A program made the position numbers and the translations under genes. From assembly GCF_004010195.1 (NCBI RefSeq), contig NC_057722.1, forward strand, positions 9,849,348 through 9,913,347: a DNA stretch of 64,000 nucleotides. Reading direction: 5' to 3'. Position 1 is the first letter of the stretch; each line of letters begins with the position of its first letter. This document shows, one piece after another, positions 970 to 58,836 of this stretch. Under the pieces are notes generated by a model, which saw only the letters and a list, made by a program, of their open reading frames with translations, made no database searches and was not told the origin of the DNA. This DNA comes from Chiloscyllium plagiosum. Lineage: Eukaryota.

Positions 970-1096
970 TTTGGAGGTGCTGGTGTTGGACTGGGGTGTA
1001 TAAAGTTAAAAATCACACAACACCAGGTTATAATCCAACAGGTTTATTTGGAAGTACGAGCTTTTGGAGCGCTGCTCCTTCATCAGGTGGTTGTGG
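970..1096 (-). mobile_element. Penelope-like terminal fragment (hammerhead GAAA mutated)
   Basis: Same family as 52310-52435. Confidence 0.75.
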
Positions 1097-4050: not shown

Positions 4051-4274
4051 GCTCCCTCTCTCCACTTGAAACACACTGCAAAATAAACTGAACCTCGCTG
4101 TTAAAGCAAGCTTTAAGGTTGAAGGTTAGAGTCGAGAGTGTGGCGCTGGAAAAGCACAGCAGGTCAGGCAGCATCCGAGGGGGCGGAAAGTCTCTCGACT
4201 CCAGTCATAGAGATTAAAAGCAACACATTTTTAAGCTCTGATCCCCAGCATCTGCAGTCCTCACTTTCTTCTAG

Positions 4275-4694
4275 TCATAGAGATGTACAGCATGGAAACA
4301 GACCCTTCGGTCCAACCCATCCAGGCCGACCAGATATCCCAACCCAATCTATCCCACCTGCCAGCACCCGGCCCATATCCCTCCAAACTCTTCCTATTCA
4401 TATACCCATCCAAATGCCTCTTAAATGTTGCAATTGTACCAGCCTCCACCACTTCCTCTGGCAGCTCATTCCATACACATACCACTCTCTGCGTGAAAAA
4501 GTTGCCCCTTAGGTCTCTTTTATATCTTTCCCCTCTCACCTGAAACCTCTAGTTCTGGACTCCCCGGCCCCAGGGAAAAGACTTTGCCTATTTGCCCGAT
4601 CCATGCCCCTCATAATTTTGTAAACCTCTATAATGTCACCTCTCAGCCTTCGACGCTCCAGGGAAAACAGCCCCAGCCTATTCAGCCTCTCCCA
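4275..4694 (-). mobile_element. CR1-type LINE 3' end
   Basis: [34 protein letters not shown]: CR1 ORF2 C-terminus. Confidence 0.88.
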
Positions 4695-7026: not shown

Positions 7027-7130
7027 ATGGAGAAGAATGCTTGCATTACTACCACTGATGGGCCTCCAGTTACTCAAAGTAATCAGAAAGCGACAGTAAT
7101 AATGGGAAAAAATGACTCTTCATCCGACTG
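7027..7130 (+). CDS. SCLY: SCLY coding exon 1 (exon begins at acceptor 6991; ATG at 7027)
   Basis: tttttaag acceptor at 6990, ccaATGG start, [17 protein letters not shown]...SSSD, donor TG|gtaagt in phase 2 matching exon 2. N-terminus is poorly conserved, so less certain. Confidence 0.75.
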
Positions 7131-22100: not shown

Positions 22101-25100
22101 GCTGCTGCAACTTTGTGAGGGTGAGGGGATAAAATATCACTGAGGTTTCTTCCCGATTATTAACCAGCGACTGCTTTGATGTGCATCAGTTGAGGATAAC
22201 TAAAGGAACCTGATTTAAAAATAAGAAATATCCCATTTAAGATGGCGACAAAGCATATTTTGTTCTGAGTGTTGAGAGCTTTGGATCTCTATTCTGCAGA
22301 AAATGGTGGAAGAATAGTCATTAAATACTTGAAGGCAGAGTTTGATAGATTCTTGATTGATTAGGATTATCAGGGGTAGGCAGGATCATGATATTGAGGC
22401 CACAATCAATTTGGCCATGATCTTATTGATTGATTGAGCAGGCTCAAGAGGCTGAATAGCATACTCCTAAATCTAATACGTGCGTTGGTTTGTAAAAGCT
22501 GGGGCCATCTGGTTGAACAATATGATATCCACTGACTGGACTTGCAGACAGAAAACATCCATTTGGATAATATTCAGAGTGCTGCTATTATTCTTGGATC
22601 ATTAACCCAACAAGTGTTCGTACTAATGGAAGAGAAGAGAGGAATAAAAACTCAAGGTGAATTTCTCTTTTGTGTTCGGTCATTCAATGCCATCTTCCAG
22701 AACTGAGAATGTTTGGGGAGACTTCTGTGCACTTTCAAGGGGCATGCAGAAAATATATGCAGGTACAACATGCCATTAGGAAGGCAGTAATATATTTGCT
22801 GTCATTGCAGTGTGTTTGGAATACAGGATGAAGGAAATCTTGTGATAATTTCTACAGGGTTTTGGTGAGACCACAGTTGGAGTGCTGTGCGCAGTTTTGG
22901 TTTCCCTGTTTAAGGAAGGATAAGTTTGTTTTGGAAACAGTACAACAAAGATTCATTCGATTAATTAATGGAATGAGAGACAGTTGGCCTGTGATAAGAA
23001 GCTGAGTAAATTGAACCTTAATCCACTGGGGGGTCAGACAAATGAGAGGTGATCTAATAGAAGCATACAAGATTCTGAAAGGTCTTGAAATGGTGGACAT
23101 GGGGTAGTTTCCTCTGGCTGAGGAATCTAAAACACAGGGCAGAGCTCGGAGTAAGGAATTTAAACATTGAGGGCTGAGATGTAGTGTAACTTCTTCACTT
23201 ATGGATTGTGAATCTCTGGAATGGCCTATCCCTGAGGTTGTTGACACTCAGCCACTGAATATGTTCAAGTTGGGACAGATCTATTTTAAATCTCTCTAGG
23301 AAAGAAAGGGATTTGAGGAGCAGGCAAAGGTCAGCCATAATCATATTGAATGTTAGAGCAAGCATGAGGGGCCACGTGGTCAACTCCAATTTCTTAGATT
23401 CTGTCATGATAGGTACTGAATATTGCAGTGTTGTAAGACTTGGATAGAAAGGCAGAGGCAGTCCATCAAATTCCAGTGCAAAGAGAACACTGGCTGTCTT
23501 TATAATTAGAGTCACACTCTCAACAGCTGAAAATGTGTTGCTGGAAAAGCGCAGCAGGTCAGGCAGCATCCAAGGAACAGGAGAATCGACGTTTCGGGCA
23601 TGAGCTCTTCTTCATTCCTGAAGAAGGGCTTATGCCCGAAACGTCGATTTTCCTGCTCCTCAGATGCTGCCTGAACTGCTGTGCTTTTCCAGCACCACTC
23701 TAATCAAGAATCTGGTTCCCAGCATCTGCAGCCCTTGTTTTTACCCTGTCTTTGTAAATAAACAGGTGATCACAATGTATCACTTTTTTAAGTTGTCAGG
23801 CTGTACACATCACAGTGTGCTGCAGGTGATTGCAGGATGGGCTTAGTCCATTAGATTGTGTATCTGGATGCATAAAGTGGTTTCATCACAGGAAGTTGAC
23901 CATGACATGATTAGTCTATTAAGATTGTATTGAAGAGAATTGTTGAATCTACTATTTATGTTATTGCTGTATGTTACATGATTAATGAGTAAAATTTATA
24001 TCTTGATCTTTTTCTGTTCTTATTGCAGACTGTCTTTGGGAAGGATAGACTCCGTTTCAACAGCCACTTTGAGGGCTCAGAGAGATTGCCTAACACCTGC
24101 AACGTGTCTATTCTTGGACCTAACCTGCAAGGTACTGGCAGAACTGTACTCTTAGTCTCAGTAAATCAGCTATTCAATGTAATTAATAAACACCCAAAAA
24201 GCACAAGGTTGGGGAATGTTTGAGTCACTACTGTGAATGTGTTATGCCACAGTAACTATTCCATTGTGTGCCAGGTCGGACAGTGCTGCTACATTGTCAA
24301 AGGCTATTGGCTAGTGTCGGAGCTGCTTGCCATTCAGACAAAGGCAATAGGTAAGAGGTCCCCAAGTTCACTCCTGTGATTCTGGAATAGGTGACAGAAT
24401 AATCTTAAATATCATTATGTCATCACCACTATCCTCAGACACCTTGCTTGTTCCTCTCTATAGTAAGATTGAATTGTAACAGAATTATTCCAATTGTATT
24501 TACAGATGTAGGTTTGCTCACTAAGCTGGAAGGTTCATGTTCAGATGTTTCATCACCATACTAGGTAACATCTTCAACCTCTGGACGAAACATTGCTGAT
24601 GATTCCTGCTTTCTATTTTTATATTTGGTTTGGTGATGTTATTTCCTGTGGTGATATCATTTCCGATGATGATGCCATGTCCTGTTCTTTTTCTTAGGGG
24701 CGAGAAATGGGATCCAAGTCAATGTATTTGTTGATAGAGTTCTGGTTGGAATGCCATGCTTTTAGGAATTCTCGTGCATGTCTCTGTTTGGCTTGTCCTA
24801 GGATGTATGTGTTGTCCCAGTCGAAGTGATGTCCTTCCTTATCTCTATGTAAGGATATTGGTGAGAGAGGTTCATGTCGTTTTGTGGCTAGTTGATGTTC
24901 ATGTATTCTGGTGGCTAGTTTTTTACCTGTTTGTCCAATATAGTGTTTGTTACAGTCCTTGCATGGTATTTTGTAAATGACATTAGTTTTGCTTGTTGTC
25001 TGTATAGGGTCTTTCAAGTTCATTAGCTGCTGTTTTAGTGTGTTGGTGGGTTTGTGGGCTACCATGATGCCAAGGGGTCTGAGTAGTCTGGCAGTCATTT

Positions 25101-26937
25101 CCGAGATGTCTTTGATGTATGGGAGAGTGGCTTGGGTTTCTGGTTGTGTTTTGTCTGCTTGTTTAGGTTTGTTGCTGAGAAATCTGTAGACTGTGTTCAT
25201 TGGGTACCCATTCTTTTTGAATACACTGTATAAGCGATTTTTCTCTGCTATGCGTAGTTCCTGTGGATCATCCATCCTAGGACAAGTCAAACAGAGACAC
25301 GCACGAGAATTCCTAGAAGCATGGCATTCCAACTGGAACTCTATCAACAAACATATTGATCTGGACCAGATTTACCACCCCTGAGAAAAAGAACAGGAAA
25401 TGACATAACCAACCCAAAGGAACCCAAACATATAAATAGAAAGCCGGAATCATTAGCTATGCTTTGTCCGGAGGCTCACGGAAGACGTTACCTAGTATGG
25501 TGATGAAATGTCTGAACTTGAACCTTCCAGCTCAACAAGCAAACCTACATCCAGAACCTCAACTTGAGCTAGAAATCTTCTCAATACTCGTTAATTGTAT
25601 TTACACTTAAGATTAGGATTTCGACTATTTTCTGAATGTAAATGGTATCCATTTTTAAAAACTGGGAGGGATCATAGTTCTGATTCAATAATATCTTCCT
25701 TGCCATTTCGCATTTAATCACCTCATTGCTTGATTTAAAATAAATAGTAATGGGGAATAGTTTAAAAAATGGAAAGTTACGGTTTAGTTAAAGACCGTTT
25801 TGTATTTTCAGCACTATGACTTATTGTCATTTTAATTATAAGCATATAATGTCAGATTTCAGCCACATAACTGTTGCCCACTGTCCCTTCCACACTGCTG
25901 AAGGATGTTGATGTTCTCCCTAAGTTCCCTCCCTGATGTGTCATGTTGGAGACTGAAAGTGTGCAGCTGATCAGTGCATGTCGCAGTAAAGACTGCTATT
26001 TTTAAATCTGTGGGCAGAATCTTCCCAGCCCTGAATGACATAGGGAATGGCACGAAAATTGGGAGAATCATATGAAGTAGCCAATGGGAAGCTTCCCAGA
26101 GTTGAGAGCAGAAAATCCCATTTTCATACCAACTTTGAGTGGAGAGACAAGATTTTCAATAGTAATCGGAGAGAAGCAATTTCCCACATGAAAGTCAGAG
26201 CAGTGAGCTCGTGACTCCAGCTTACTACTTACTCCTGCAGGCCTCCATCAACCACCTACATCTCAGAGTACACTCCATGTACAGCCACTGCACAACCTGC
26301 CAAACCCAAGTCAAGAATGAAATACAGAATCAGAACTGGATGTCCCCTCAGGATAGTAGAATCTGGGCAGAGAAACCTTGCAGAGAAGTGGATAGATTTA
26401 GCTGGGGTAGATGGGACCGGAGTTGGTCATTTATTTTTCATCGTTGTAGAAACCTGATCATCCAAAAATTGAATTGATGGCAAGTCTGGAGAAAGCAAAA
26501 TGAATTTCCTCCAGAGAAATGAAAATAGCTGTCAGACAAGCATGTACCTTGTTGGTGAAACCCCTTCAATGGGCACCTGAATTAATATCTGGTTAGGAAT
26601 TGGATTAAAGGTTTCAAGCAAACATACAGGTAGAGGGAATTAATTACTCCCTTCATGCTTGTCTAACAGCTATTTTCATTTCTCTGGAGTAAATTCATTT
26701 GGTGGGCTGAATGCATTTATTTTCTTTCTCCCTCTCACATCCTGTAACCATCAATCTTGCTTTTCTAGGCCTTCCCATGTTTTGCTAAACAGTGGCATTC
26801 CCTATGAGGTGGCAGAGAACGCACTTCGCTTGAGTGTGGGACGTGCAACATCAAAGGAGGATGTAGATGCCATCATAGAAGATCTGAAACAAGCTGTTAG
26901 TGAAATTGAAATGTGTGCTGCACAATCTGGGAAGTAG
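7027..26937 (+). CDS. SCLY: Selenocysteine lyase, complete spliced CDS: join(7027-7130,7780-7889,8467-8567,9243-9429,13121-13248,14431-14592,18205-18311,19687-19723,21286-21369,24029-24131,24275-24350,26769-26937), 1368 nt, 455 aa
   Basis: Manual translation gives [47 protein letters not shown]|FYGPRIG (PLP Lys), [18 protein letters not shown] (catalytic Cys), ALRLSVGR. All introns are GT-AG and phases join without frameshift or stop. Confidence 0.96.
7780..7889 (+). CDS. SCLY: SCLY exon 2
   Basis: [36 protein letters not shown]; cag / gtatgt. Confidence 0.96.
8467..8567 (+). CDS. SCLY: SCLY exon 3
   Basis: [34 protein letters not shown]; tag / gtaaga. Confidence 0.95.
9243..9429 (+). CDS. 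SCLY: SCLY exon 4
   Basis: ANNLVFHTA...[26 protein letters not shown]; ccag / gtgaga. Confidence 0.95.
9890..10660 (-). mobile_element. CR1-type LINE fragment
   Basis: Degenerate ORF2 ([11 protein letters not shown]..., YEERL..LGL). Confidence 0.75.
10827..12183. mobile_element. Older Penelope-like fold-back (arms of several hundred bp) interrupted by a SINE
   Basis: 10835-11270 is inverted at 11395-11660 plus 11980-12150; near-TSD GGAAA(C/T)AGCAGG at 10815-10826 and 12184-12195. Confidence 0.72.
11662..11978 (-). mobile_element. HE1-like SINE
   Basis: Reverse complement of the 32288 family. Confidence 0.82.
13121..13248 (+). CDS. SCLY: SCLY exon 5
   Basis: [43 protein letters not shown]; tcag / gtaatc. 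Confidence 0.96.
14431..14592 (+). CDS. SCLY: SCLY exon 6 (ends in the PLP-binding HK)
   Basis: [10 protein letters not shown]...[32 protein letters not shown]; acag / gtaaag. Confidence 0.96.
16285..17640 (-). mobile_element. CR1-type LINE fragments interrupted by a Penelope-like terminus (16690-16925)
   Basis: Degenerate RT/3' sequence. Confidence 0.65.
16836..16874 (+). ncRNA. Minimal hammerhead ribozyme motif (sense to SCLY intron 6)
   Basis: CAC-CTGATGA-A-GGAG-TGGCG-CTCC-GAAA-GCTA-GTG. Confidence 0.68.
17665..18162 (+). mobile_element. HE1-like SINE (17810-18162, +) preceded by an inverted partial copy (17665-17805, -)
   Basis: A/B boxes at 17820/17865; the upstream piece is the reverse complement of the SINE 3' half. 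Confidence 0.82.
18205..18311 (+). CDS. SCLY: SCLY exon 7
   Basis: [36 protein letters not shown]; gtag / gtacgt. Confidence 0.96.
18540..19070 (-). mobile_element. CR1-type LINE fragment
   Basis: Degenerate ORF2 similarity (KFPGPD-like region on the reverse strand). Confidence 0.55.
19687..19723 (+). CDS. SCLY: SCLY exon 8 (37 nt)
   Basis: [12 protein letters not shown]; cccag / gtaaat. Confidence 0.95.
20467..20817. mobile_element. Penelope-like inverted termini enclosing a copied 130-bp segment
   Basis: 20480-20590 inverted versus 20731-20817; near-TSD AATCAA(A/G)AACA at 20456-20466 and 20818-20828. Confidence 0.72.
21286..21369 (+). CDS. SCLY: SCLY exon 9
   Basis: [28 protein letters not shown]; gtcag / gtatgt. 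Confidence 0.94.
21362..21465 (+). repeat. Perfect 51-bp tandem duplication across the SCLY exon 9 donor
   Basis: aactgttggtatgtgtgaacgtttagaagtaacaaaataatattttaaagt x2. Confidence 0.95.
22750..23400 (+). mobile_element. CR1-type LINE 3' fragment
   Basis: [15 protein letters not shown] and [13 protein letters not shown] motifs. Confidence 0.8.
23530..23745. mobile_element. Short Penelope-like fold-back (~165-bp palindrome)
   Basis: gtgttgctggaaaagc...cgacgtttcgggc / gcccgaaacgtcg...gcttttccagcaccac. Confidence 0.8.
23614..23648 (+). ncRNA. Hammerhead core at the apex of a fold-back repeat (sense to SCLY intron 9); stem I truncated
   Basis: CTGAAGA-A-GGGC-TTAT-GCCC-GAAAC-GTC. Confidence 0.6.
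24029..24131 (+). CDS. SCLY: SCLY exon 10
   Basis: [34 protein letters not shown]; gcag / gtactg. Confidence 0.95.
24275..24350 (+). CDS. SCLY: SCLY exon 11 (catalytic Cys)
   Basis: [26 protein letters not shown]; ccag / gtaaga. Confidence 0.95.
24505..25592 (-). mobile_element. Penelope-like element remnant with GIY-YIG endonuclease, inverted terminal copy and 13-bp TSD
   Basis: ORF 24694-25350 has [20 protein letters not shown]...RIHEH. 25270-25592 is an inverted copy of the 3' end. AATTGTATTTACA at 24492-24504 and 25593-25605. Confidence 0.9.
26769..26937 (+). CDS. SCLY: SCLY exon 12 (terminal, TAG at 26935-26937)
   Basis: [55 protein letters not shown]; ctag acceptor. Confidence 0.95.
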
Positions 26938-28063: not shown

Positions 28064-28579
28064 TGTTGTGGTTGTGTTCGCCGAGCTGGGAATTTGTGTT
28101 GTAGACATTTCGTCCCCTGCCTCGGGGACATCCTCAGTGCTTGGGAGCCTCCTGTGAAGCGCTTCTGTGTTGTTTCCTCCAGCATTTATGGTGGTTTGTC
28201 TCTGCCGCTTCCAGTTGTCAGTTCTAGCTGTCGCTGCAGTGGCCGGTATATTGGGTCCAGGTCGATGTGTTTGTTGATAGAATCTGTGGATGAGTGCCAT
28301 GCCTCTAGGAATTCCCTGGCTGTTCTCTGCTTGGCTTGTCCTTTAATAGTAGTGTTGTCCCAGTCGAACTCATGTTGCTTGTCACCTGCGTGTGTGGCTA
28401 CTAAGGATAACACGAACTAGCCATGCAATGACACGACCAGCTATCCTTAGCTTCACAGGAGGCTCCCAAGCACTGAGGATGTCCCCTAGACAGGGGACGA
28501 AACGTCTGCAACACAAATTCCCAGCTCGGCGAACAGAACCACAACAACGAGCACCCGAGCTACAAATCTTCTCACAAAC
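28064..28579 (-). mobile_element. Penelope-like element remnant (second subfamily), inverted termini, 12-bp TSD
   Basis: [28 protein letters not shown] (GIY-YIG C-terminal part); TTCTTTGAAAGC at 28052-28063 and 28580-28591. Confidence 0.88.
28468..28511 (+). ncRNA. Minimal hammerhead ribozyme motif in a Penelope-like terminus
   Basis: GCA-CTGAGGA-T-GTCCCCT-AGAC-AGGGGAC-GAAAC-GTC-TGC: 7-bp stem II, GUC triplet, GCA/TGC stem I. Confidence 0.75.
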
Positions 28580-47000: not shown

Positions 47001-50000
47001 GGAACATGAGCCACTGACTAAAGTATGGATGTGAGCATTAATTAGATGGTCTTATGCAATATGATGGCAATAAATCGCAAGTCAATGCCAGAATTGTCCT
47101 AGATTATATGAATGTCACTGGTAAGAAGGCTTACATATTAGACCAAAATATTAAGTTGGCAAGTTAGCAGAAGTTTTGATAAGCTCAGACAGTAACAGTG
47201 GAGAAGGGGAATAATTAGAAAGTTACAAAAGGTGTTGAGTGTACATAAGTAAATTTCTAATGAAGTTGGAAAGTGGAATGCAAGTGGCAGAACCTGAAGA
47301 GATGTCAGACTGCAGCATTACGTTTTGAGGCACATATATTAGGAACATTAGGCCTGGAGGTCTGATTGGAACTCTGCTGATGAAAAATTGAGCTGTCTTA
47401 ATAGGAAAAATGATCGCACTACCATAAAGCATAATGGAGCAACAGAAAAAGGATATTGATCAACATTTCTGATCTGAATGTTAAAGAAGTGAAAGGTGAT
47501 GTAAAGCTTTCAGAGTTTCAAGTTTGGGGAGGAGTGGAAATGAAGATTTATATGATCTTTAGAAGGTAAATTTGAAGAGGGGATAAATTGATCAGCTATT
47601 GCTGGGAAAAGACAAGAGCAGGTAGGATTTATTTTTAGTAACTGACAGCAATCTTGTAGCCTTTTAATATTAATGAAAAGGGTCAACAGAAAATGAAGGT
47701 TATAGGTCACCTGTGGTGGAGTTGAGCCTGCATTGAGTGATTGACATATACTCACTTATGACAGAGAGGTCCTATCCCATCCATTTCCTGAACTACACCT
47801 GAGGAGGACTCCCCGTGCGTGATGAAAAACAAAATGGGCTTGTGCTGCTCCAGAGCCTGTGAAGCAAAACAGATCTTTTACATGGCACCTGCTCACAGCT
47901 GACAGCAAAAACAGACCAACTTTCAGATCCACACATGGCAATTGGAGTTGCCTATATCTCCTGCCCACTTTGTGAAGTTGAACATGAGTAATGCATCCCC
48001 ATTCGTCGCACTGGATTACCCTGAATCAGAAACAGAGTTTTCACTCTGTGAGCAAACCGGCTCAGCGTAATGACAAATCATCGGTCACTGAACTTGCCAT
48101 CACAAAGCCACTTCACACTCTGTTGTTGGAAGTTATTATAATGACTGCCCCAATAATGCATCTTCTGCCATTCCCTAACCAAATTGGGAGTGCAAATGTC
48201 AGGCATGAGACATCAGTGGAGTCTGGGAACCAAGAGAGGAAAATACTTTAGAGGCTCAGCCAATATCAGAGCTGAACATGGAATAATCACCCTAAAGAGA
48301 ATCTCAGAGATCAAAATACGTGACTGGTTCCAGGAGTGTACTGGCACACCTCTGCATCCGATTTTCAATAACCCACGTACAATGAAATACTAAAGTCTCT
48401 CTACTCATATAAGCTTACAAGTTAGGAACAGAAGTGGACCATTTGGGTGCTCCAGCCTGCTCAACCATTTAATAAGATCATGGCCATTCGGATTGTAAAC
48501 TCAACTCCACATTGCCAACTACTCCACCCTCACTCCCTGGAAACCTTTTGCTTCCCAAGAGTTTAAGCACCTTAAAAACAATTCATAGATTTGGGTTTGA
48601 CTGCCTTGTGAGGATAACACTTCTAAAAACTCTCAAATCTTTGAGGGACAAAAAAAAAATCCTCATCTCTCTTAGTTGGACAAACCATTTCTTTTAAAAC
48701 AGTGACTAATGATTCATGGATTAAAGTTTGAGATCATCATAGAATTCCTCCAGTGTGGAAACAGGCCATATCAAGTGAACACCAACCCTCCAAAGAGCAC
48801 CTCACCAAGGCCCACTCTACGTTTCCCATTTCCCACCTCACCCACACCTTGCTGGACACTATGGCCAATCCTAATAACTTGCACATCCTAGGACTCCAGG
48901 AGGAAACCCACACAGACAATCACCTAAGGGTGGAATTGAACTCAGGTCCCTGTGCTGTGAGGCAGCAGCGCTAACCACTGAGCCACCGTGCTGCATCAGA
49001 TGAGAGTGAAAGACCATCCAAGATTCTCTTAATTTGCCCGACATTGTTGAGTGACCTCAGAAACTAACTACTCACATCAAAATGCATGTGCTTTGATGAA
49101 GTAGAAATTCTAAGGCCAAACAATGAGAGCTCAGGGTCCTTTGCTCCTTTGGTCTGGGTGCACTAACACATTGGCCAGTAGGTGGTGCCATAGTATTCTG
49201 TCCAACCCGCCCCCACAAACTGCTCTGACTTTTGAATCAGAAACCAAATCAATAGAGACCTTAATTTATTCTGATTGAGGTTCCAACCCTTACAAATGAC
49301 AGTCAATTATTTAGAAGACTACAATCTTTATTTTTATGACTGTCACTACGTTTCCACTAATTGAAGGAGGGAGAAGAGGCATAACCCCAAGACACACACA
49401 CGGACACGTCTATGCGCACATGCAAGTAGATGACCTAAGACAAACCTGCTCAATTTCTTGCAAGGTGAACATTTCACCCGGAGGTTTTACAAATCTCCTG
49501 ACATCGCCACCTTAAATACAAAGTGACAGGATAACATCACTGTGGTGTCAAGTCTTCATCTGGATCTATTTCAACATAATGTTCTGGTTACCACTAAGTT
49601 AACAGAAAACTCAATATTTTTGAAAGTTGAAAGTCTTAATTGAAAGTTATACTCAAGAGGTCAGATGGCCTCTTTGGTATGCAGCAGCACCATATCAGAT
49701 TGTGAGCTTTTCCAGTGCTGACAATAAAAGATCTGAGGAGTTGTCCTTTGATTGAAGCCTTCATGACAGCTGCAAGTACTCATCTGATTCTGTTGCATTT
49801 ATCTGGGAACGTTGACCAGATAATTGATTTCAATGTGGAGCATGATCAGGCTGGGGCGTGAGCCTGCAGCATGTTATTATTGTGCTGGAAAACCTTGAAG
49901 ACACACAGATCTGATTAGTAGAGATAGAGCAAGATCTGTATCAGAAAGAGAGAGAGAGAGAGAGCACGCGAGAGACAGAGACAGCATGACCCAAATCAGG

Positions 50001-53000
50001 GCAGGAGAGCGAAAGAGGGAGCAGGACACAGGAAAACCTTGAAACACCAGGGAGACAGAGAGAAAATAGAGTAGCTATCAGGAAGTCCACAGCACAGAGC
50101 TTAAGATTATAAAATGTGGGAGCTAAAGCAGACCATTCAGCCCTTCAAATCTCCTGTCCATTCAATGAAATCGTGGCTGATCTTATAATCTTCAATACGT
50201 CTTTTCCCAATAACTCTTGTTTCTCTCACTCATTAAAAATCTGTCTATCTCAGCCTTGACTCTGCTTAACAACCCAGTCTCTACAGCCACTGTTGTTGAG
50301 GTCTATAAAACTTACATAAAAGTATGCCTTCACATTTTTTCAGGGTAAATATTTAAGACCCGTAATCCCTGCAGAATAACTACCTGGATGGAGAGCTGAT
50401 CAGAGCAGTATAACATTCAGAATGCCCTCTCAGTGCAAACCACTGTTTTGACTGAACAAAGAACAGTACAGCACAGGATCAGACCCTTCGGCCCACCAAG
50501 ACTACACTGACACATGATGCCTTTCTAAACTAAAAATCTTTTGCCCCTATGTGGTCCATTATTTATTCCCTTTATTCCCTGCCTATTCATTTATCTGTAA
50601 AGATGCCTCTCAAGTGGTGCTATTGTACCTGCCTCCACCATCTCCTCTGGCAGTGTATTCCAGGCACTTACCACCCTCTCTGTAAAAACACTTGCCTCTC
50701 ACATCTCCTGTAAATTTATCCCCTATTGCCCTAAACCAATGTCCCCAAGTAATCGATATTTCTACCCTATGAAAAAGACTCCCGACTGTCCATTCTATCC
50801 ATGTCTCTCATAATTTTGTAAACTTCTATGAGTTCATCCCTCATTCTGAAATGTTCAATTGAAAACAATCCCAGGTTTGTCCAATCTCTCCTCATAGCTT
50901 CGAAACTAGGCAACATCCTGGTAAACCATTCCTGTACCTTCTCCAAAGCCTCTCCACCATTCTAGTAGTGTGGTGACTGGAATGGTACACAATATTCTAA
51001 ATGTGGGCAAAGTGAGTACTGCAGGTGCTGGAGACCAGAGTCAAGATTAGAGTGGTGCTGGAAAAGCTGGAGGGCATCATCAACGATGTGGGAGGGGAAA
51101 TTGTGATCTTTAAAGAAGGAGGCCATCTGGTTTGTTCTGTGGTGGAACTGGTCCTTCTTTAAAGACCTCACTTTCCTCTCCCAGATGCCCTCCAGCGCAT
51201 CTCATCCACATCCCACATCTCAGCCCATGAACCACACCCCTCCAACCGCAACAAGGACAGAACTGCACAGTCCTCACCCTCCACCCCACCAACCTCCGCA
51301 TACATTGCATCATCCTCCACCATTTTCGCCATCTACAAGGGGACCCCACCACCAGAGATATATTTCCCTCCCCACCCCTAACGCTTTCCGTAAAGACCAT
51401 TCCCTCCACGTCCCTTAACAACCCACCCTCCCCTCCTGGCACCTTCCCCTGCCACCGCAGGAATTGCAAAACCTGCGCCCAAACCTCCCCCCTCACCTCC
51501 GTCCAAGGCCCCAAAGGAGCCTTCCACATCCATCCAAGTTTCACCTGCACTTCCACACGTCATTTACTGTATCCGTTGCTCCTGATGCGGTCTCCTCTAC
51601 ATTGGGGAGACTGGATGCCTACATGCAGAGCGCTTCAGAGAAAATCTCTGGGACACCCGCACCAATCAACCCCACTGCCCCCAAACATTCAACTTCCCCT
51701 TCCACTCAGCCGAGGACATGCAGGTCCTGAGCCTCCTCCATCACCACTCCCTCACCACCCGACGCCTGGAGGAAGAATGCCTCATCTTCCACCTCAGGAC
51801 CCAGGGTATCAATGTGAACTTCACCAGTTTCCTCATTTCCCCTCCCCCCACCTTACCCCAGTTCCAACCTTCCAGTTCAGCCCCCATTCCTGATGCCCAA
51901 AATGTTGATTTTCCTGTCCCTTGGATGCTGCCTGGCCTGCTGTGCTTTTCCAGCGCCACTCGAATCTTGACAATAGTCTAAATGTGGCCTAGTTAAAGGT
52001 ATGTATGCTAGAATTTTTTTTCATTGCTTTGCATCAATTTTCTAATTCAGTTATGGGACGTAGGGATTTCTGCTAGTCCATCATTATTTGCTTATCCCTA
52101 ATTGCCCTGGAGAATTTCACTGTTGTTGTTTCTTCACTGTTGTTTCTAAAGCATAGGTCGGCTTAGTTTTCCTTTTAGGATTTGTAGCATTTTGATCCAA
52201 CTGAATGATTTCCTTTCCAGTTAGGAGGCCACCACATTGGTGTGGGGATGAAGTCACACATAGAGCAGGTAAGGATAGAACATTTCCTCCCTAACGTGAG
52301 TGAGATATGATTTGGAGATGCCGGTGTTGGACTGGGGTGTGCAAAGTTAAAAATCACACAACACCAGGTTATAGTCCAACAGGTTTAATTGGAAGCACAC
52401 TAGCTTTCGGAGCGACGCTCCTTCATCAGGTGTTAGTGGAGGGCTCAATCCTAACACACAAGAATTTATAGCAAAACTTTACAGTGTGGTGTAACTGAAA
52501 TTATACTTTGAAAAATTGATTATCTGTTAAGCCTTTCATCTGTTAGAATACAGTGATAGTTTCACTTCTTTCATGTGTAAATCACAAAACATTTTTTTAA
52601 AGTTGCATTCTCGGGTTAGCTGTTAACAATGGTGGTAGCGAGACAATGTGTTGAAGGTGTTGGCCCCCTGTGTTTTCTGTCTATGCCATGATGTTTAGAT
52701 TGATTCTAATCTAAAAAGTGAGAAAACGGAGTTTTACATAAATTCACTCAGTTTTTGAGCAAAGTACTGTGGTCCAGGACATTCAGCCTCGGACCTTCGG
52801 GTGACCATCCTCCAAGGTGGACTTCGGGACAGGCAGCAGAGAAAAGTGGCCGATCAGAGGCTGATAGCTAAGTTCGGTACCCATAGGGAGGGCCTCAACC
52901 GGAACCTTGGGTTCATGTCACATTACAGGTGATCACCGTTGCACTACACACACACACACACAGATATTCCTACACACACACACACTCTCACATACACGGA

Positions 53001-56000
53001 CACAGGTACACACAGACGCGCACACAGACACCCACACACACCCTTATAGACACACACACTCCCACACTTTCACATGCACCCCCTCACAGACTTAANNNNN
53101 NNNNNNNNNNNNNNNNNNNNNNNNNNNNNNNNNNNNNNNNNNNNNNNNNNNNNNNNNNNNNNNNNNNNNNNNNNNNNNNNNNNNNNNNNNNNNNNNNNNN
53201 NNNNNNNNNNNNNNNNNNNNNNNNNNNNNNNNNNNNNNNNNNNNNNNNNNNNNNNNNNNNNNNNNNNNNNNNNNNNNNNNNNNNNNNNNNNNNNNNNNNN
53301 NNNNNNNNNNNNNNNNNNNNNNNAGATGAAAGGCTTAACAGACAATCAATTTTTCAAAGCATAATTTCAGTTACATCACACTGTAAATTTTTGCTATAAA
53401 TTCTGTGTTACGATCGAGCCCTCCACTATCACCTGATGAAGGAACGTCGCTCCGAAAGCTAGTGTGCTTCCAATTACAATTAAACCTGTTGGACTATAAC
53501 CTGGTGTTGAGTGAGATAAGTTTTTACAATTCCAGATTTTATTGAATTCAAATTTTACAGTGTGCTGTTGTGCAAATTGAACACATGTCCCCAGAACATT
53601 GGATTGGGGTTTTGGATTATTCATAATATTGCCATTACATTACCAGCTCCCCTGCAAAGTTACTTGGGCTCATTGATCAATAGAAGTTTCTAAGGTTCCA
53701 AGATCTCTTTCAACCTCATCCATCCTTACTTTAACAGTGCTGGCGGAGCACATTACATTTCCATTGCTTATGAAATACATTAGCTGCCCACCTACTTACT
53801 TTGACCACATTCATTGTGAAGGAGGCTGAGCTGCTCCTTCGACTATTCGCACATTATGTCAGTACCATTTTGAAATTTGACCTGCTTGCATTGCTTTTCA
53901 GTCAGCAAGCCAGTGATCCCAATTCTATGCTCAGTCCTTCGATCTCACTTGGACACTGCTCCACTAACCAGACAATGCCAATGGCTTTTTTCACCCCTCA
54001 GCCCATTCTTGACCCATTTCCTGGTCTCATTTGAATCACCACAGCTTTGAGTCTAACCTGTTGCCATTATCAGGTGTCCACCCCATCTGTTCATTCTTGT
54101 TGCTAACGTTAGACACACTGGTGGAGACCTGCCATCAGCCCTTACACTCAGAGACAGTGCTTGAAAGGAAGTGTGGAAGTGCAGGTGAAACTTTGATGGA
54201 TGTGAGGCCTTGGACGGAGGTGAGGGGGGAGGTGTGGGTGCAGGGATTTGCAATTCCTGCGGTTGCAGGGGAAGGAGCCAGGAGGGGAAGGTGGGTTGTT
54301 GGGGACCTGACCAGGTAGTCATGGAGGGAACTGGTCCTCCAAACAACACACCAGATGGCCTCCTTCTTTAAAGATGACAATTTCCCCTCCCATGTGGTTG
54401 ATGATGCCCTCCAGCGCATCTCATCCTTTCCAGAAAGGAGGAAGGAATTAATTGATAATTGTCTCAATATTTTACTATGTAAAATCCATCACTTTGTCAA
54501 CAGACTGTTGAGAAGCTATCCAGTTGTTTAAGTGACAGCACATTTCTTTAAGGAGGGAGAAAACTCAAACTCGGATGCTCGCAATATTATGAAGTAAGGA
54601 AAGTGTAAAATTCGTACCAATTCTCTCAGCAATGTCTGCTGCCCTTTCACCCCACACACCGTGAATTCCAATCAGCACCACATCGCCTGGTTCCACCACG
54701 TTAACTAAAGCTGCTTCCATCGCTGCGTGGCCAGAGCCACTGATTGCCAGAGTCATGTTGTTTGTGGTCTGAAAGGCATACTGTATTCCAGCTTTTATCG
54801 TGTCCATAATCTGCCAAGAGAAGGAAACGGTCATAGACTGGAGAATCAGAAACAGATCAGAAGATACTCTCAGCTAGATTTTTGTTTTAGCTGGAAGCTG
54901 TACTCAAAATAAAAATGGAAGTGGAAATGTGGAGAATCTTTAAACAAAAAGTAGTAATTCCTCACGTATTGATGGAAAGAGGAGTTCTGATATTCAAAAA
55001 ATCAACAGCCATGGATGCAACTTATAGATCCACGTCAGGAAAGATTCTTTAGATTATGTTATACAAAGCCCTGCTCAGACCACACCTGGAGTTATCCTAA
55101 CGGACTGTGTGTCATACCTCAAAGGATATGTTGACCTTGAAGAGAGTGTAGCCTAGATTTAGATGCACAACCATAGAAAATAGGAGCAGGAGTAGGCCGT
55201 TTATTACTGCAAGCCTTCATCAGCACTCAATATGATTATGTCGGATCATCCAAATCATCACCGTGTTTCTGTTTACTCATCATTCCCTTTGATCCCTTTA
55301 GTCGGAAGAATTATTTCTAACTCCTTCTTGAAAACATTCAATATTTTGGCCTCAACTGCTTTCTGTGGTAGTGAATTCTATAGGCTCACCACTCTTTGAG
55401 TGAAGAAATTTCTCCTAATTTCTGAGCTAAATGCCGACTCCCTATGCGTAAACTTACAGTAAGATGGCAGTGAGGTTGGCCCCGGAGTTCGTCAGTTCTG
55501 TCTGCTTCTCTTTAATCCTCTTCTGTTTCACTTTACTTGCTTCTTGATGAAGAGCTCAGTGGCGACGGTGGTATTGGTGGTGAGCGGGCCCAGCAGCACA
55601 AACTCATGATGGTGGCATCGGAGACACGTTTGGCTTCCTGGTGGCTGCTGCATCGTCGAAGTGTTCTTGGTGTCAACTCATGGCTGCGGCTATGGAGTTG
55701 GGTTTGTGTACCCGACAGCACCTGCTTTCAGCCCAGCTTCATGGAGGCGACAGTGGAGGCAAGTTTAGGCCCAGTATGAGACCTGTTGGCATCGGCAGCA
55801 GCTGCTTTGGCAAAGTGGGTCCAAAGCAGACTCTGGGCTTAAGTTTGGGCCTTTTGGTACCCATTGACATCTTTGGCATCTGCATTGGCGAGGTCCAGCA
55901 AACACCCATAGTGGCGAGAGCGTTAGTGGAGGCAAGATGGCATCGAAGAGTGGTGACCTCCATTCCAATGGCAAATGGGATTCGTGCCTGGTGAATAGGC

Positions 56001-58836
56001 CCATAACCCATGACAGACCATTTAACAAGAAGTTAGACACTTTATTTCTTCATTTTTCCTCCTTAGTATTCTATTGTTTGGTTTATTTTTCTGTGTTTTA
56101 AGATGGTGGCAGAGAGTGGCAACACTACAAAACACTTTTCACTGTATTTTTGGAACAAGATAGATGTGACAATAAATAAATCAAACTGTGATCCCTGGGT
56201 TCTGGACTCACCAGTCATTGGGAACATCCTTGATGAAGGGCTTTTGCCCGAAACGTCGATTTCGCTGCTTCTTGGATGCTGCCTGAACTGCTGTGCTCTT
56301 CCAGCACCACTAATCCAGAATCTGGTTTCCAGCATCTGCAGTCATTGTTTTTACCTCATTGGGAACATCCTTCCTGCCCTGTTTAGTCCAGTTAGAATTT
56401 TACTAGGGTAAAGGATTTTTATAGGATTTTACAAGGTTACTTCAGGTTTCGGTAGTAGGAGGGAATACATAAAAGAAGGGTTGTATTCTCTAGATTCATG
56501 GAATTTGTAAAGTTGAGAAATCATTTGATCAAAGGTTTTAACATATTAAAAGCAAGAGTTATATCAGATTTGCAAAGGGATTTCCGCTAGTTGGGAATCA
56601 AGAACTAGAGGATGTGATCTAAAAGAGCTTACAGGAGTGAAAGTAAGAGACGTTTTGTCAAAGAATGGTAGAAGTTTTAAATTCTCCTGTAATAGAAATT
56701 GACACTAAAATAGTTGTTAATTTTAAAACTGAGATTGATGTTTTTAAAATTTGAGGATTAAAGGATAAAATAGAACATGAGAGCAAACTAGAACATACAA
56801 ATACAAATGAAATATGCAGATTCAGAATCATTGAATCGCTACAGTGTGGAAGCAGGCCATTCAGCCCATCAAGTCTACACCAACTCTCCCACCAAGACTC
56901 ATCACATCCTGTAATCATGCATTGCCCATGGCTAACCCACCTAATCTGCAAATACCTGGACTTCATGGGCAATTTAGCGTGGTCAATTCACTTAACCTGC
57001 ACATCTTGGGAGGAAACCAGAGCACCCAGAGGTAAATCCAACGCATTATTAAAAGCAGCCTGCAATTTAAAGAGGGATGACTCTGCAATGTATCTATTAG
57101 CTTGTAAAGGTTTAGAATTGCAAACAGTGTGCAATTTCAACATTAAAAAAAAGAATATGTTGTACAACGTCAAAGCGCATTCAAGGTTGGGAAGGACAAG
57201 TTTAGAATAGACATCAGAAAGGATCTCTTTACAGAGGTAGTGATCACCAACAGAATTTATACCAGGCTCATGTGACTAAATTATTGGGGCCATTTTGCTA
57301 AATAACTTGACCCTCAAAGCTGAGAGACTGACTGTAGCATGGATAGCCTAGAAGGATAAGTTCAAAAGGAAGGGAAGGAGTTTAAACTTATCGCTGATTC
57401 CTTTAAATTGAGGATTTAGGTCTGAGGAGCTCTGTGCATCTTATTGACAAATTATAAAGGTTGTAAAAGGAAACAACATGCTTGCTGGATAGCAAAACTG
57501 AAAATAGAAAACAATGGAACTGCACAAAGGATCAGCAAACATCACCAAGAGAAAAGACAGGCTCTCATTTTGGAGTTAAGCTGAAATCATGCAGGAAATA
57601 TCTCTTCCTTCGAATGGATCAAATGGTTGGGTTGGGTACTGGTGTCATTTTAGATTAATTTGTGTGAGAGGATACCCACATGATTGGGCAGAGATCGATT
57701 TTTAAACCTAGTCTCTATTTTCCTTTCAACTGACTCGAGTGGACAGTCAATTCAACTAGGATGCAAAACCATCATAGCACCCAATCCCATCAATTTCCCA
57801 ACTGGATGGGGAAGGGGGGATGTTTTAGTAATAAACTTACAGCTCCCTCCACCACACACACTTCCCCTCTCCCCTCCCAACCCCAACCCCCTCCCCCCCC
57901 ACTGAACCTCTTAACTGGTAGCCAGCATATGTGTAAACCATTGAAGTGGTGGTGAGGGAGAACTGAGTAGATGAGAATTGAAAACTTATCCAGGTAAAAG
58001 TCGATCTTGGATGGAAGTGTAAAAACAGGACTGTCAGATGGGCTGCATGTTCTGCTCACTGGCTGACATCCAATTCTATTAACAGGACGGGTGATACAAA
58101 TGGCCTCTCTCTAATGCTGCCTGTTTTGTAGGATGTCCCCACCAATCCCTCCTCAATCCCCACACAGCCCTCCAGTCCCCTACCAAAACAAATTCTAGAC
58201 AAATTTTAAGAAATTGGAAGAGAACTTCAACAACACTCTGTGCCTGATTTCAAAAAGATTCCTTGAAAGTCTGTATGGCTGTAATCAGGTGCAAAACAAA
58301 TTTTAGCTTTTTGACTTCAAAGAACACAGATACATTTAGTTTTAAATGACCCAACTTGACAGACGTTGCCACTTCCTTCGTGTGAACTCTCCACTTTTGC
58401 TGCTATTTACAAAGATTATTATTTCTGAAGCAGTTTCTCACATCCTCAGAAACATCTAGGCTTTGCATTGGTTGAAGGGCAGATGCACCTTTGAAAGAAA
58501 AGTGACCAAGTAGACGAAAATAGAATGAAAGGGGCTTACCTCAAACATTTCGACGTGCATGTGCCCAATTATTTGCTTGCCACCCGCCTCTTGGACGCGA
58601 GTGGAGATGTTCGAGGGTCCGGGTCCCAGCAGTAGTTTTTTGGGGACAACAAGAGGTTGCAGGAGGGCCGGGGGTGGAGGAATTGTGAGCTCAGCGTTAG
58701 CATACATACTGCGGCTGAACGACCTGCACCGGGAGCCCAATCGCGCCAGGGGAGCAGAACCTCGTTCAACCTGCGCCAGGAAGCTACAGCCTGTCAGATG
58801 CGCCAGGAGAGGTCTTCGAAGCACGACCCGTGACAT
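31913..58836 (-). CDS. AGXT: Alanine-glyoxylate / serine-pyruvate aminotransferase, complete spliced CDS: complement(join(31913-32020,33851-33979,37738-37833,40075-40144,41313-41408,44204-44288,45423-45493,47756-47856,49446-49510,54618-54810,58540-58836)), 1311 nt, 436 aa (393 aa from second ATG at 58707)
   Basis: [42 protein letters not shown] (PLP Lys), [26 protein letters not shown]. Internal exon sizes 193/65/101/71/85/96/70/96/129 match the vertebrate AGXT structure as I recall it; all introns GT-AG. Confidence 0.97.
32288..32605 (+). mobile_element. tRNA-derived HE1-like SINE, well preserved
   Basis: A box tggcacagtggtt, B box ggttcaattcc, V-like central domain, CR1-type tail, (aatct)n end. 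Confidence 0.85.
33851..33979 (-). CDS. AGXT: AGXT exon 10
   Basis: [43 protein letters not shown]; 129 nt. Confidence 0.96.
34370..37440 (-). mobile_element. Two copies of an old LINE (CR1/L2 clade): 34370-34910 and 35320-37440
   Basis: Mutually similar 3' ends; degenerate RT motifs ([19 protein letters not shown]) on the reverse strand; same family as 50-105/1205-1330. Confidence 0.65.
37738..37833 (-). CDS. AGXT: AGXT exon 9
   Basis: [32 protein letters not shown]; 96 nt. Confidence 0.95.
38948..39244 (+). mobile_element. HE1-like SINE
   Basis: A/B boxes and family similarity. Confidence 0.82.
40075..40144 (-). CDS. AGXT: AGXT exon 8
   Basis: [23 protein letters not shown]; 70 nt. Confidence 0.96.
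40840..41265. repeat. C/T-rich low-complexity tract
   Basis: Dense ccc/ctcc runs; purine-rich on the AGXT sense strand. Confidence 0.7.
41313..41408 (-). CDS. AGXT: AGXT exon 7
   Basis: [32 protein letters not shown]; 96 nt. Confidence 0.95.
41903..42252 (+). mobile_element. HE1-like SINE
   Basis: A/B boxes and family similarity. Confidence 0.82.
42419..42468. repeat. (TTAGA)n simple repeat
   Basis: tagatttagattagattagattaaatt. Confidence 0.7.
44204..44288 (-). CDS. AGXT: AGXT exon 6 (PLP Lys in SQK)
   Basis: [28 protein letters not shown]; 85 nt. Confidence 0.97.
44394..44927. mobile_element. Tc1/mariner (Tigger/pogo-like) MITE
   Basis: TA|CAGATAGTTCTCCGATAATGC...GCGTTATCCCAGAACTGCCTG|TA: imperfect TIRs and TA TSD, no transposase ORF. 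Confidence 0.8.
45423..45493 (-). CDS. AGXT: AGXT exon 5
   Basis: [23 protein letters not shown]; 71 nt. Confidence 0.96.
45590..46935 (-). mobile_element. CR1-type LINE fragment
   Basis: [33 protein letters not shown]. Confidence 0.78.
47756..47856 (-). CDS. AGXT: AGXT exon 4
   Basis: [34 protein letters not shown]; 101 nt. Confidence 0.96.
48735..48993 (-). mobile_element. HE1-like SINE, internally deleted
   Basis: Family similarity. Confidence 0.72.
49172..49190 (+). promoter_or_regulatory. CTCF-like motif in AGXT intron 3
   Basis: TGGCCAGTAGGTGGTGCCA, close to the CTCF core consensus TGGCCACCAGGGGGCGCTA. Confidence 0.5.
49446..49510 (-). CDS. AGXT: AGXT exon 3
   Basis: [21 protein letters not shown]; 65 nt; taag / gtttg. 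Confidence 0.93.
50455..51006 (-). mobile_element. CR1-type LINE 3' fragment
   Basis: [14 protein letters not shown]; similar to 4275-4694. Confidence 0.78.
51007..51976 (+). mobile_element. Penelope-like element remnant with internal inversion, nested in a CR1 fragment, 11-bp TSD
   Basis: Degenerate GIY-YIG (atttactgtatccgttgc...tacattggggagactgga); TCTAAATGTGG at 50996-51006 and 51977-51987. Confidence 0.82.
52394..52434 (-). ncRNA. Minimal type I hammerhead ribozyme motif in a Penelope-like terminus (sense to AGXT intron 2)
   Basis: Reverse strand reads ACAC-CTGATGA-A-GGAGC-GTC-GCTCC-GAAA-GCTA-GTGT: intact core, 5-bp stem II, ACAC/GTGT stem I, palindromic AGCT in place of stem III. Confidence 0.75.
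52945..53075. repeat. Degenerate (CA)n microsatellite next to the gap
   Basis: acacacacac runs. Confidence 0.85.
53096..53323. other. Assembly gap (228 N)
   Basis: Run of N. Confidence 1.
53428..53466 (+). ncRNA. Hammerhead motif, inverted partner of the 52394-52434 copy
   Basis: CAC-CTGATGA-A-GGAAC-GTC-GCTCC-GAAA-GCTA-GTG; one stem II mismatch. Confidence 0.6.
54165..54430. mobile_element. Penelope-like coding fragment with inversion
   Basis: Homologous to 51070-51560 in both orientations. Confidence 0.7.
54618..54810 (-). CDS. AGXT: AGXT exon 2
   Basis: [15 protein letters not shown]...[12 protein letters not shown]...[13 protein letters not shown]; 193 nt. Confidence 0.97.
55455..56186 (+). 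mobile_element. Non-autonomous retroelement-like insertion within a CR1 fragment
   Basis: Starts aagatggc, ends ttttcactgt...gtgacaataaataaatcaa (SINE/LINE-type tail); CR1 sequence resumes on both sides. Confidence 0.5.
56232..56355 (+). mobile_element. 5'-truncated Penelope-like terminal fragment with 17-bp TSD, inside a CR1 fragment
   Basis: TCATTGGGAACATCCTT at 56215-56231 and 56356-56372; hammerhead core truncated at its first C. Confidence 0.82.
56825..57030 (-). mobile_element. HE1-like SINE 3' part
   Basis: Family similarity. Confidence 0.65.
58540..58836 (-). CDS. AGXT: AGXT exon 1 (two in-frame ATGs: 58836 and 58707)
   Basis: MSRVVLRR...[39 protein letters not shown]...HMHVEMFE; donor gtaagc. 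Confidence 0.92.

What the first reader, a model, noticed from the sequence alone, without database searches (positions are those of the whole stretch)
52394..53466. Family of minimal hammerhead ribozymes in Penelope-like termini; a perfect copy is sense within AGXT intron 2
Seen: CUGANGA-N-[stem II]-GAAA-[palindrome AGCU or ACGU]-H motifs recur about a dozen times (intact at 16841+, 23618+, 28473+, 52429-, 53433+; decayed at ~1086-, 20735+, 24575-, 25479+, 28138-, 56231+). Stem II sequences differ between subfamilies (GGAGC/GCTCC, GGGC/GCCC, GTCCCCT/AGGGGAC) yet always pair, which is covariation evidence for real structure. Established: Penelope-like elements carry minimal type I hammerheads with almost no helix III, proposed to cleave as dimers. 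The AGCU/CUA-triplet variant and the intronic sense copies are the parts worth testing. This is the best candidate for a hidden RNA system in the window, although the class itself is known.
Basis: partly seen in the sequence, partly recalled or inferred. Interest (0 to 1): 0.7.

Follow-up and report, generated by a model that had tools for sequence, protein, structure and literature searches.

The report
Penelope retrotransposon ends carrying minimal hammerheads
The small self-cutting-RNA motifs are real but are the known end-pieces of Penelope-type jumping genes, and the copy inside the AGXT intron is one arm of a mirror-image insertion that is likely an inert passenger; RNA from this family gets its poly(A) tail about 30 bases past the predicted cut site.

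Summary
Observation confirmed: 6 core matches in the window against 0.02 expected; stems covary between lineages. The motifs are the minimal type-I hammerheads known from Penelope-like element (PLE) pLTRs. 52429- and 53433+ are the two inverted arms of one 1.2-kb, 5'-truncated Neptune-type PLE with a 9-bp target duplication in AGXT intron 2, so one arm is sense whichever way it lands. One tight pattern has 14,393 exact matches in the genome. AGCU palindromes and a CUA triplet are both already in print. In 1.6 Mb of intragenic DNA, intact copies are not depleted in sense (30 of 60), cores decay no slower than flanks, and copy ends do not pile at the cut site. AGXT intron 2 is spliced, and the antisense arm is predicted to bury the sense ribozyme in a duplex. 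Fresh detail: 311 reads carry poly(A) 28-31 nt past the predicted cut, behind an AUUAAA/AAUAAA signal, and reads run through the ribozyme. Unit mRNAs would thus likely carry one hammerhead at each end. This scan noted the same class many times before, also in this genome. Known class, low interest.

The parts
52298..52306 (+). Target-site duplication, left copy (9 bp)
   Evidence: Same 9 bases flank both ends
52307..52760 (-). Left arm: inverted copy of the element's 3' UTR + pLTR + long tail; sense to AGXT
   Evidence: Matches other genomic copies at 92-95% over about 455 bp; 91% to the right arm over 194 columns
52397..52433 (-). Intact minimal type-I hammerhead: C3 at 52429, extra A after A9, 5-bp stem II, AGCU palindrome, CUA triplet, 4-bp helix I; predicted cut 52401/52400
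52384..52389 (-). ATTAAA poly(A) hexamer, 11 nt past the predicted cut (AATAAA in the sister lineage)
   Evidence: Sequence; one of the two hexamers in 47 of 61 family tails sampled
52369..52372 (-). Family-level polyadenylation sites, followed by a GU/U-rich stretch
   Evidence: 178 + 133 reads of run X21 with poly(T) loose ends at 52369 and 52372; reads come mostly from other copies
52759..52932 (+). C-terminal 57 codons of the PLE GIY-YIG endonuclease (5'-truncated ORF)
   Evidence: 150 of 150 scored genome matches at 88-100%, from 15,495 candidates; longer copies show the CX3CxxC linker and the GIY-YIG-type motifs
52933..53323 (+). CA-rich 3' UTR and a 228-N assembly gap (53096-53323)
53324..53508 (+). 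Right arm: direct pLTR with short end; antisense to AGXT
   Evidence: (I14, I18)
53433..53461 (+). Hammerhead of the right arm; core intact, stem II pair 4 broken at 53444
53509..53517 (+). Target-site duplication, right copy
49511..54617 (-). AGXT intron 2 (host intron)
   Evidence: Exons, identity, spliced joint 49508-54616
16841..16869 (+). Intact AGCU-family (A) hammerhead, outside the AGXT coding span
23528..23698 (.). Fold-back insertion of the GGGC/ACGU family (B); intact hammerhead at 23618+
   Evidence: (I19)
24505..25558 (.). Inverted two-arm insertion of family C2; decayed hammerheads 24577- and 25479+; GIY-YIG remnant in 24697-25371 (-)
   Evidence: (PF01541 E 9e-4, under the cut-off)
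28064..28577 (.). Inverted two-arm insertion of family C; 28473+ intact, 28137- decayed
   Evidence: (I9)
1002..1090 (-). Decayed family-A hammerhead at 1086- (G12 lost)
20501..20817 (.). Inverted pair of family-A ends; 20735+ has a broken stem II
56230..56310 (+). Decayed family-B hammerhead (C3 lost), antisense in AGXT intron 1

Best explanation
The motifs are minimal type-I hammerheads in the terminal repeats of several Penelope-like retrotransposon families, and the AGXT intron-2 pair is one truncated, inverted Neptune-type insertion whose ribozyme is likely inert at this site. Shown: architecture, target duplication, endonuclease remnant, copy number, between-lineage covariation, neutral-rate decay of genomic copies, no strand bias in introns, splicing of intron 2, family-level poly(A) addition 28-31 nt past the predicted cut. 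Inferred: selection acts only in the active source elements; there transcription likely starts 3-10 nt before the core in the 5' pLTR and ends at the poly(A) site just after the core in the 3' pLTR, so a unit mRNA would hold one hammerhead at each end, the two partners needed for the 4-bp palindromic helix III; cleavage is likely slow or needs the element's protein. The many short stubs would be cDNAs primed in the tail that ran off the 5' end of uncut RNA; two such cDNAs joined head to head would give the inverted insertions. In AGXT pre-mRNA the sense copy has no dimer partner and is predicted to be fully paired with the antisense arm transcribed before it.
For: Chance control 6 vs 0.02; 107 strict hits vs 3 in reversed sequence over 1.597 Mb. 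14,393 exact matches of one pattern, control 0. L055 has two direct hammerhead pLTRs 2,517 bp apart around a broken ORF with a weak RVT_1 hit (E 0.004), ATG right after the long tail. CX3CxxC linker before the endonuclease, the Neptune/Nematis mark (PMC8557442). Inverted pLTR, one-sided tail and 9-bp TSD as in Adineta Pen2a (PMC3846280). Covariation: 97.7% of 88 cells paired, 27 double changes, 0 of 500 shuffles; tail-anchored majority letters pair at all scored stem II positions and helix I positions 1-2 except family C pair 4. Core vs tail change rate, non-CpG: A 57/519 vs 143/2110, B 155/2037 vs 529/7579, C 4/198 vs 20/635, D 22/210 vs 48/663. Sense share: 30 of 60 strict; A 30 of 72, B 139 of 275; intact among sense vs antisense A 7/22 vs 9/30, B 37/102 vs 35/104. 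5' ends at -12..+2: 31 of 72 and 137 of 275; at cut +-2: 1 of 72 and 8 of 275. Exon 2-3 joint depth 1267 vs intron pieces 13-41 in X16. All 30 hammerhead bases paired to the other arm, duplex -307 kcal/mol. Monomer inactive, dimer weak in vitro (PMC4209133); Anolis PLE hammerhead cuts only with protein (PMC11167929).
Against: No cleavage assay. The transcription start is inferred from DNA ends only; my crude cap-G test gave 7 G of 25 against 8.5 expected. Solo family-A copies are 10 of 30 sense (p 0.10), so a modest depletion is not excluded; the sample is 14 large genes with strands taken from Pfam exon hits. Poly(A) reads come from one run (2% read; the second run laid 0 reads) of a 3'-biased library that would hardly show a short cut product, and they map to the family, not to this locus. 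X16 is only guessed to be RNA. Family B's and D's link to a PLE ORF was not shown by my calls. Representatives were picked from hits that had passed a pairing filter.
Confidence: 0.85

Rival explanations
1. Intact sense copies such as 52429- cleave host pre-mRNA (alone, in trans-dimers among the many copies, or with PLE protein) and affect or regulate genes such as AGXT.
For: Core, stem II and a 4-bp helix I are perfect and form the predicted monomer fold. Domesticated intronic hammerheads exist in amniotes (PMC6155905). Solo family-A copies lean antisense, 10 of 30.
Against: No strand bias in 60 strict or 347 family copies; cores not better kept than flanks and not more broken in sense; exon 2-3 joint abundant; arm-arm duplex buries the motif; the copy belongs to a young family with over 14,000 near-identical members.
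Confidence: 0.05
2. The motifs are non-catalytic in these lineages and are kept as a promoter, protein-binding or RT-positioning structure at the RNA's 5' end.
For: Copy 5' ends pile just before the core and not at the cut; polyadenylated reads run through the motif; in Anolis, catalytic mutants insert normally in vitro and no reads end at the cut (PMC11167929).
Against: Catalytic positions, the H17 rule (A, C or U in nearly all copies) and the palindrome are held across lineages whose stems have fully diverged; related motifs cleave as dimers or with protein.
Confidence: 0.07
3. The short copies are an independent non-autonomous family (retrozyme- or MITE-like) that replicates as such.
For: Thousands of fold-backs (340 and 2,724 in two gap classes); four of five fetched short fold-backs share a near-identical centre.
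Against: Junctions in the listed fold-backs vary widely; arms match the pLTR of full elements; same-strand neighbours within 1 kb are rare (A 2 pairs among 52, B 8 among 206, C and D 0), unlike tandem retrozymes (bioRxiv 10.64898/2026.07.22.740005).
Confidence: 0.03

Closest known systems
Minimal hammerheads (min-HHR) in pLTRs of metazoan Penelope-like elements (Cervera and De la Pena 2014, PMC4209133)
   Same: CUGANGA core, extra nucleotide between 9 and 10.1, G10.1-C11.1, palindromic 15.2/16.2 with no loop 3, short helix I, several covarying families per genome, mostly solo copies, opposite-strand pairs some hundred bases apart; AGCU and CUA both appear in Fig. S3.
   Different: No cartilaginous fish among the 56 listed motifs; AGCU together with A17 is not among them; far higher copy number than the 4,000-9,000 given for coelacanth and Xenopus; an adjacent poly(A) site is not described in the parts read.
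Endonuclease-bearing PLE insertions of Neptune/Nematis type with inverted pLTR, one-sided tail and TSD (PMC8557442; Adineta Pen2a, PMC3846280)
   Same: 5' truncation, inverted 5' copy, tail on one arm only, 9-bp TSD, C-terminal GIY-YIG with CX2-5CxxC linker.
   Different: Only the last 57 codons remain here; clade assigned from the linker in sister copies, no tree built.
Anolis Poseidon element PAc (PMC11167929)
   Same: Hammerhead in the pLTR, two 3' end classes about 35 nt apart matching two RT start sites, no sign of RNA or copy ends at the cut.
   Different: In PAc the ORF starts inside the hammerhead; here the ATG follows the long tail, about 90 nt past the cut.
Ultraconserved intronic hammerheads of amniotes (RECK and others; PMC6155905)
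   Same: Type-I hammerhead in the sense strand of an intron.
   Different: Those are single-copy, conserved and have helix III; this is one of thousands of young repeats with no sign of selection.

Membership tests
PLE minimal type-I hammerhead | Core CUGANGA...GAAA...UH | tested here: met
   H17 is A, C or U in nearly all sampled copies
PLE minimal type-I hammerhead | Extra nucleotide between A9 and G10.1; G10.1-C11.1 pair | tested here: met
   All six lineage representatives, G-C or its CpG-decay G-U
PLE minimal type-I hammerhead | Palindromic 15.1-16.1 segment, no stable helix III | tested here: met
   ACGT 57, AGCT 13, CpG-decay ACAT/ATGT 33, other 4, of 107 hits
PLE minimal type-I hammerhead | Covarying helices I and II across families | tested here: met
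   picked representatives lean toward pairing, tail-anchored majorities agree except family C pair 4
PLE minimal type-I hammerhead | Located in pLTRs flanking an RT/EN ORF | tested here: met
   Family A: L055 and endonuclease remnants; C2: GIY-YIG remnant; B and D not shown
PLE minimal type-I hammerhead | Self-cleavage as dimer or with protein | not testable with these tools
   No assay; no excess of copy ends at the cut; no read-end pile listed
Neptune/Nematis-type EN+ PLE | CX2-5CxxC linker before a C-terminal GIY-YIG domain | tested here: met
   Seen in 8 of 21 printed open frames, e.g. L024, L043
Neptune/Nematis-type EN+ PLE | RT phylogeny places it in the clade | not tested
   No tree built; only a weak RVT_1 hit
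Neptune/Nematis-type EN+ PLE | Truncated insertion with inverted pLTR, one-sided tail, TSD | tested here: met
Non-LTR retrozyme | Tandem units each with a type-I hammerhead | tested here: not met
   Focal pair is inverted; same-strand neighbours rare
Domesticated intronic hammerhead | Single-copy and conserved beyond its flanks | tested here: not met
Rfam hammerhead families | Match to the covariance models | tested here: not met
   No hammerhead hit at E<=10 in the window

The most novel reading that the evidence does not exclude
The pLTR of this Neptune-type family works like the R region of an LTR that is cut to fit the ribozyme: transcription starts 3-10 nt before the hammerhead and poly(A) is added 28-31 nt after its cut site. 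Every unit mRNA then carries exactly two hammerheads, one at each end, which pair into the active dimer. Cutting would remove cap and poly(A) tail in one step and leave ligatable ends, a protein-triggered switch from mRNA to a circular template that alone can be copied beyond one unit.
Probability: 0.25. Interest if true: 0.6.

Novelty: new member of a known kind. Interest (0 to 1): 0.22.

Why it matters
As a host feature it matters little: it shows that an animal genome tolerates a very large number of intact-looking hammerheads (about 130,000 if the 1.6-Mb sample is typical) on either strand of its introns, which fits ribozymes that are silent as lone copies. The mapped poly(A) site and the pile of 5' ends bracket the ribozyme in a window of about 65-70 nt. 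If that is the terminal redundancy of the element's mRNA, it says where the dimer partner comes from and gives a defined RNA with which to test the open question of what PLE hammerheads do.

Tried and rejected
Rfam scan: no hammerhead model matched. First motif script had an off-by-one pattern and found nothing useful. The 'long ORFs' of L051-L054 were N gaps. Monomer folding z-scores are unremarkable, -1.55 to +0.54. MAFFT alignment A1 put family A one column out of register, so pair counts used the 11 non-A rows and a core-anchored count on 6 lineage representatives (42 of 42 cells, 1 of 720 permutations; picked from filtered hits). Cut-site trace in copy ends: not seen (1 of 72 and 8 of 275, about 3 and 8 expected from neighbouring positions). 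Cap-G at 5' junctions: not seen in a crude, small test. Strand bias tied to the poly(A) hexamer: 22 of 47 sense. Dating the insertion: contigs of two runs labelled organism A and one of organism C cross the left junction by only 24 nt, organism B's contig leaves 22 nt before it; inconclusive. No RNA holder was on record in the run list; X22 laid 0 reads. Lunse et al. 2016 (PMC5785218) is not held and was seen only as summarised in PMC6765202; it may list AGCU/CUA or shark variants. Supplements of the bioRxiv preprint are closed. Searches for a poly(A) site in PLE pLTRs (passages of PMC2377424) and for shark PLE hammerheads found no such description; this covers the open-access library only.
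Full report
OBSERVATION. All 11 sites are at or within 2 nt of the given positions. A pattern that asks for no pairing has 6 matches in the window against 0.02 in shuffles. Four copies are fully formed (16841+, 23618+, 28473+, 52429-); 53433+ has a broken fourth pair in stem II; the rest have lost C3, U4, G12, the palindrome or stem II. Family searches find 21 hits in the window, about twice the listed number. Rfam gives no hammerhead hit. AGXT runs on the minus strand: exon 2 matches alanine-glyoxylate aminotransferase structures at E 4e-25, exons 1-5 were placed from sequence and later ones from short recalled motifs. 52429- is sense and 53433+ antisense in intron 2.

ANATOMY OF THE FOCAL SITE. 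52307-53508 is one insertion with a 9-bp duplication on both sides. The left arm (52307-52760, minus) is an inverted copy of the 3' UTR, pLTR and long tail; then come the last 57 codons of an endonuclease (52759-52932, plus), a CA-rich stretch, a 228-N gap and the direct pLTR with a short end. The peptide matches 150 of 150 scored places from 15,495 candidates; longer copies show a CX3CxxC linker before the GIY-YIG-type domain, which PMC8557442 (passages) gives as the mark of Neptune and Nematis. L055 holds two direct hammerhead pLTRs 2,517 bp apart around a frameshifted ORF with a weak RVT_1 hit, its ATG directly after the long tail. Inverted pLTR, one-sided tail and 9-bp duplication are the typical PLE insertion (PMC3846280, passages). 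With arms in both directions, one hammerhead is sense in any host intron. That the genome (3.56 Gb) is a shark's rests on my recall of these repeats and on earlier notes, not on a call.

ABUNDANCE AND COVARIATION. One tight family-A pattern has 7,275 + 7,118 exact matches, control 0. I fetched 165 stretches (1.597 Mb without N) from inside 14 large genes delimited by same-strand spectrin or LDL-receptor exon hits. They hold 107 strict hits against 3 in reversed sequence; 60 have a palindrome and at least 2 bp of helix I, about 130,000 genome-wide if typical. Across 11 non-A copies 97.7% of 88 cells pair, with 27 double changes and 0 of 500 shuffles as high; these rows were picked from filtered hits. 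Copies collected by their tail alone give the same majority pairs, except an A.G/G.G mismatch at pair 4 in 20 of 20 family-C copies. So the structure was kept in the source lineages.

NO SIGN OF ACTION IN HOST INTRONS. Within families the non-CpG core changes as fast as, or faster than, the tail: A 11.0% vs 6.8%, B 7.6% vs 7.0%, C 2.0% vs 3.1%, D 10.5% vs 7.2% (the first core bases lie near truncation points, which raises A and D). Sense share is 30 of 60 strict hits (AGCU 3 of 10, ACGU 27 of 50), 30 of 72 family-A and 139 of 275 family-B copies; solo copies 10 of 30 (p 0.10) and 63 of 126. Intact share does not differ by strand (A 7/22 vs 9/30; B 37/102 vs 35/104); in B core changes are, if anything, fewer in sense (84/1104 vs 115/1138, p 0.045). 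In run X16 (RNA by guess) the exon 2-3 and exon 1-2 joints have depth 1267 and 1204, unique intron pieces 13-41, and one contig starts inside the right arm and runs into the flank. In the pre-mRNA the antisense arm is made first; folding pairs all 30 hammerhead bases with it (duplex -307 kcal/mol).

THE 'VARIANT' IS IN PRINT. PMC4209133 (main text parts 1-3 of 4, supplement parts 1-2 of 3) describes the extra nucleotide, the palindrome, solo copies, opposite-strand pairs, no monomer cleavage and weak dimer cleavage. Its Fig. S3 lists AGCU motifs for turtle (CUU), schistosome and rotifers (CUC, CUU) and a CUA triplet for a shrimp PLE; AGCU with A17 and any shark are not among the 56 rows. The AGCU dimer helix is computed slightly more stable than ACGU (-2.5 vs -1.7 kcal/mol). 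The Anolis PLE hammerhead cuts only with the element's protein and is not needed for insertion in vitro (PMC11167929, passages and section 3 part 2). Dimer cleavage of other PLE variants I saw only as summarised in PMC6765202 (passages). Tandem retrozymes avoid introns in Xenopus (bioRxiv 10.64898/2026.07.22.740005, parts 1-2 of 5).

WHAT THE ENDS AND READS ADD. 5' ends of copies lie at -12..+2 from C3 in 31 of 72 (A) and 137 of 275 (B), but at the cut +-2 in only 1 and 8, no more than neighbouring positions give. 3' ends of family A fall in two classes near +85 and +122, like the two RT starts of PAc. Fold-backs are common (340 and 2,724 in two gap classes); in the listed ones a long arm often reaches just past C3 and the other ends at varied places (read by eye). 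In poly(A)-selected run X21, 178 and 133 of 1,297 laid reads carry poly(T) loose ends at 52369 and 52372, 12-15 nt after ATTAAA and before a GU/U-rich stretch; the DNA there is not A-rich. Depth continues upstream through the motif (234 at 52433, 99 at 52522), and none of the 40 shown rows of 76 differences lies in 52401-52429. Most of these reads carry other letters, so they come from other copies; AGXT exons had no reads in that run. AATAAA or ATTAAA is present in 47 of 61 sampled tails. So the family's RNA is polyadenylated just past a ribozyme that, in these molecules, had not cut.

MECHANISM. Shown: element anatomy, copy number, lineage-level covariation, neutral-rate decay, no strand bias, splicing, family-level poly(A) site. 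Inferred: a start 3-10 nt before the core; two hammerheads per unit mRNA forming the dimer; slow or protein-assisted cleavage; short stubs as run-off cDNAs from uncut RNA (a reading shared with earlier notes); two primed strands giving inverted insertions. My crude test for a cap-derived G did not support the earlier notes' claim (7 of 25 vs 8.5), but it is small. At AGXT the copy is most likely a passenger (0.85).

VERDICT. Real, known class, new member. The scan has met it often: 217 notes held my search words, some in this genome. Interest 0.22; the bracket of start and poly(A) site around the ribozyme is the one lead worth a bench test.

Noticed in passing
window 52369-52389 (-): The sense arm brings a poly(A) signal that the family uses into AGXT intron 2; a likelier risk to the host than the ribozyme, though no strand bias was seen (22 of 47 sense) and use at this locus is not shown.
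   Followed up: partly
window 58540-58836 (-): AGXT exon 1 has two in-frame ATGs 44 codons apart, the upstream stretch rich in Arg, Leu and Ser like a mitochondrial targeting peptide (recalled feature of AGXT in some vertebrates).
   Followed up: no
L057-L060 (G000:C1 2.94, 12.30, 19.16, 19.33 Mb): Four independent short fold-backs share a 15-nt centre between the two hammerheads, a hot spot about 7 nt before C3.
   Followed up: partly
L056:542-897 (-): Two intact family-A hammerheads in direct tandem 355 bp apart, a natural cis-dimer candidate.
   Followed up: no
family C copies, e.g. L076:9185, L147:700: Young family C carries a fixed A.G or G.G mismatch in stem II pair 4; the window copy 28473+ has C-G there. 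A TATAAA-like motif lies about 50 nt before C3.
   Followed up: partly
window 26498-26705: About 200-bp near-perfect inverted repeat (weak miRNA-model hits in Rfam), MITE-like, no hammerhead.
   Followed up: no
window 51066-51954: Another decayed retroelement stretch ending in a family-B pLTR remnant, also in AGXT intron 2; no Pfam hit in the two frames tried.
   Followed up: partly
window 17810-18150, 32289-32600, 38950-39250, 41904-42250, 11660-11984: Several copies of a tRNA-like-headed SINE family.
   Followed up: no
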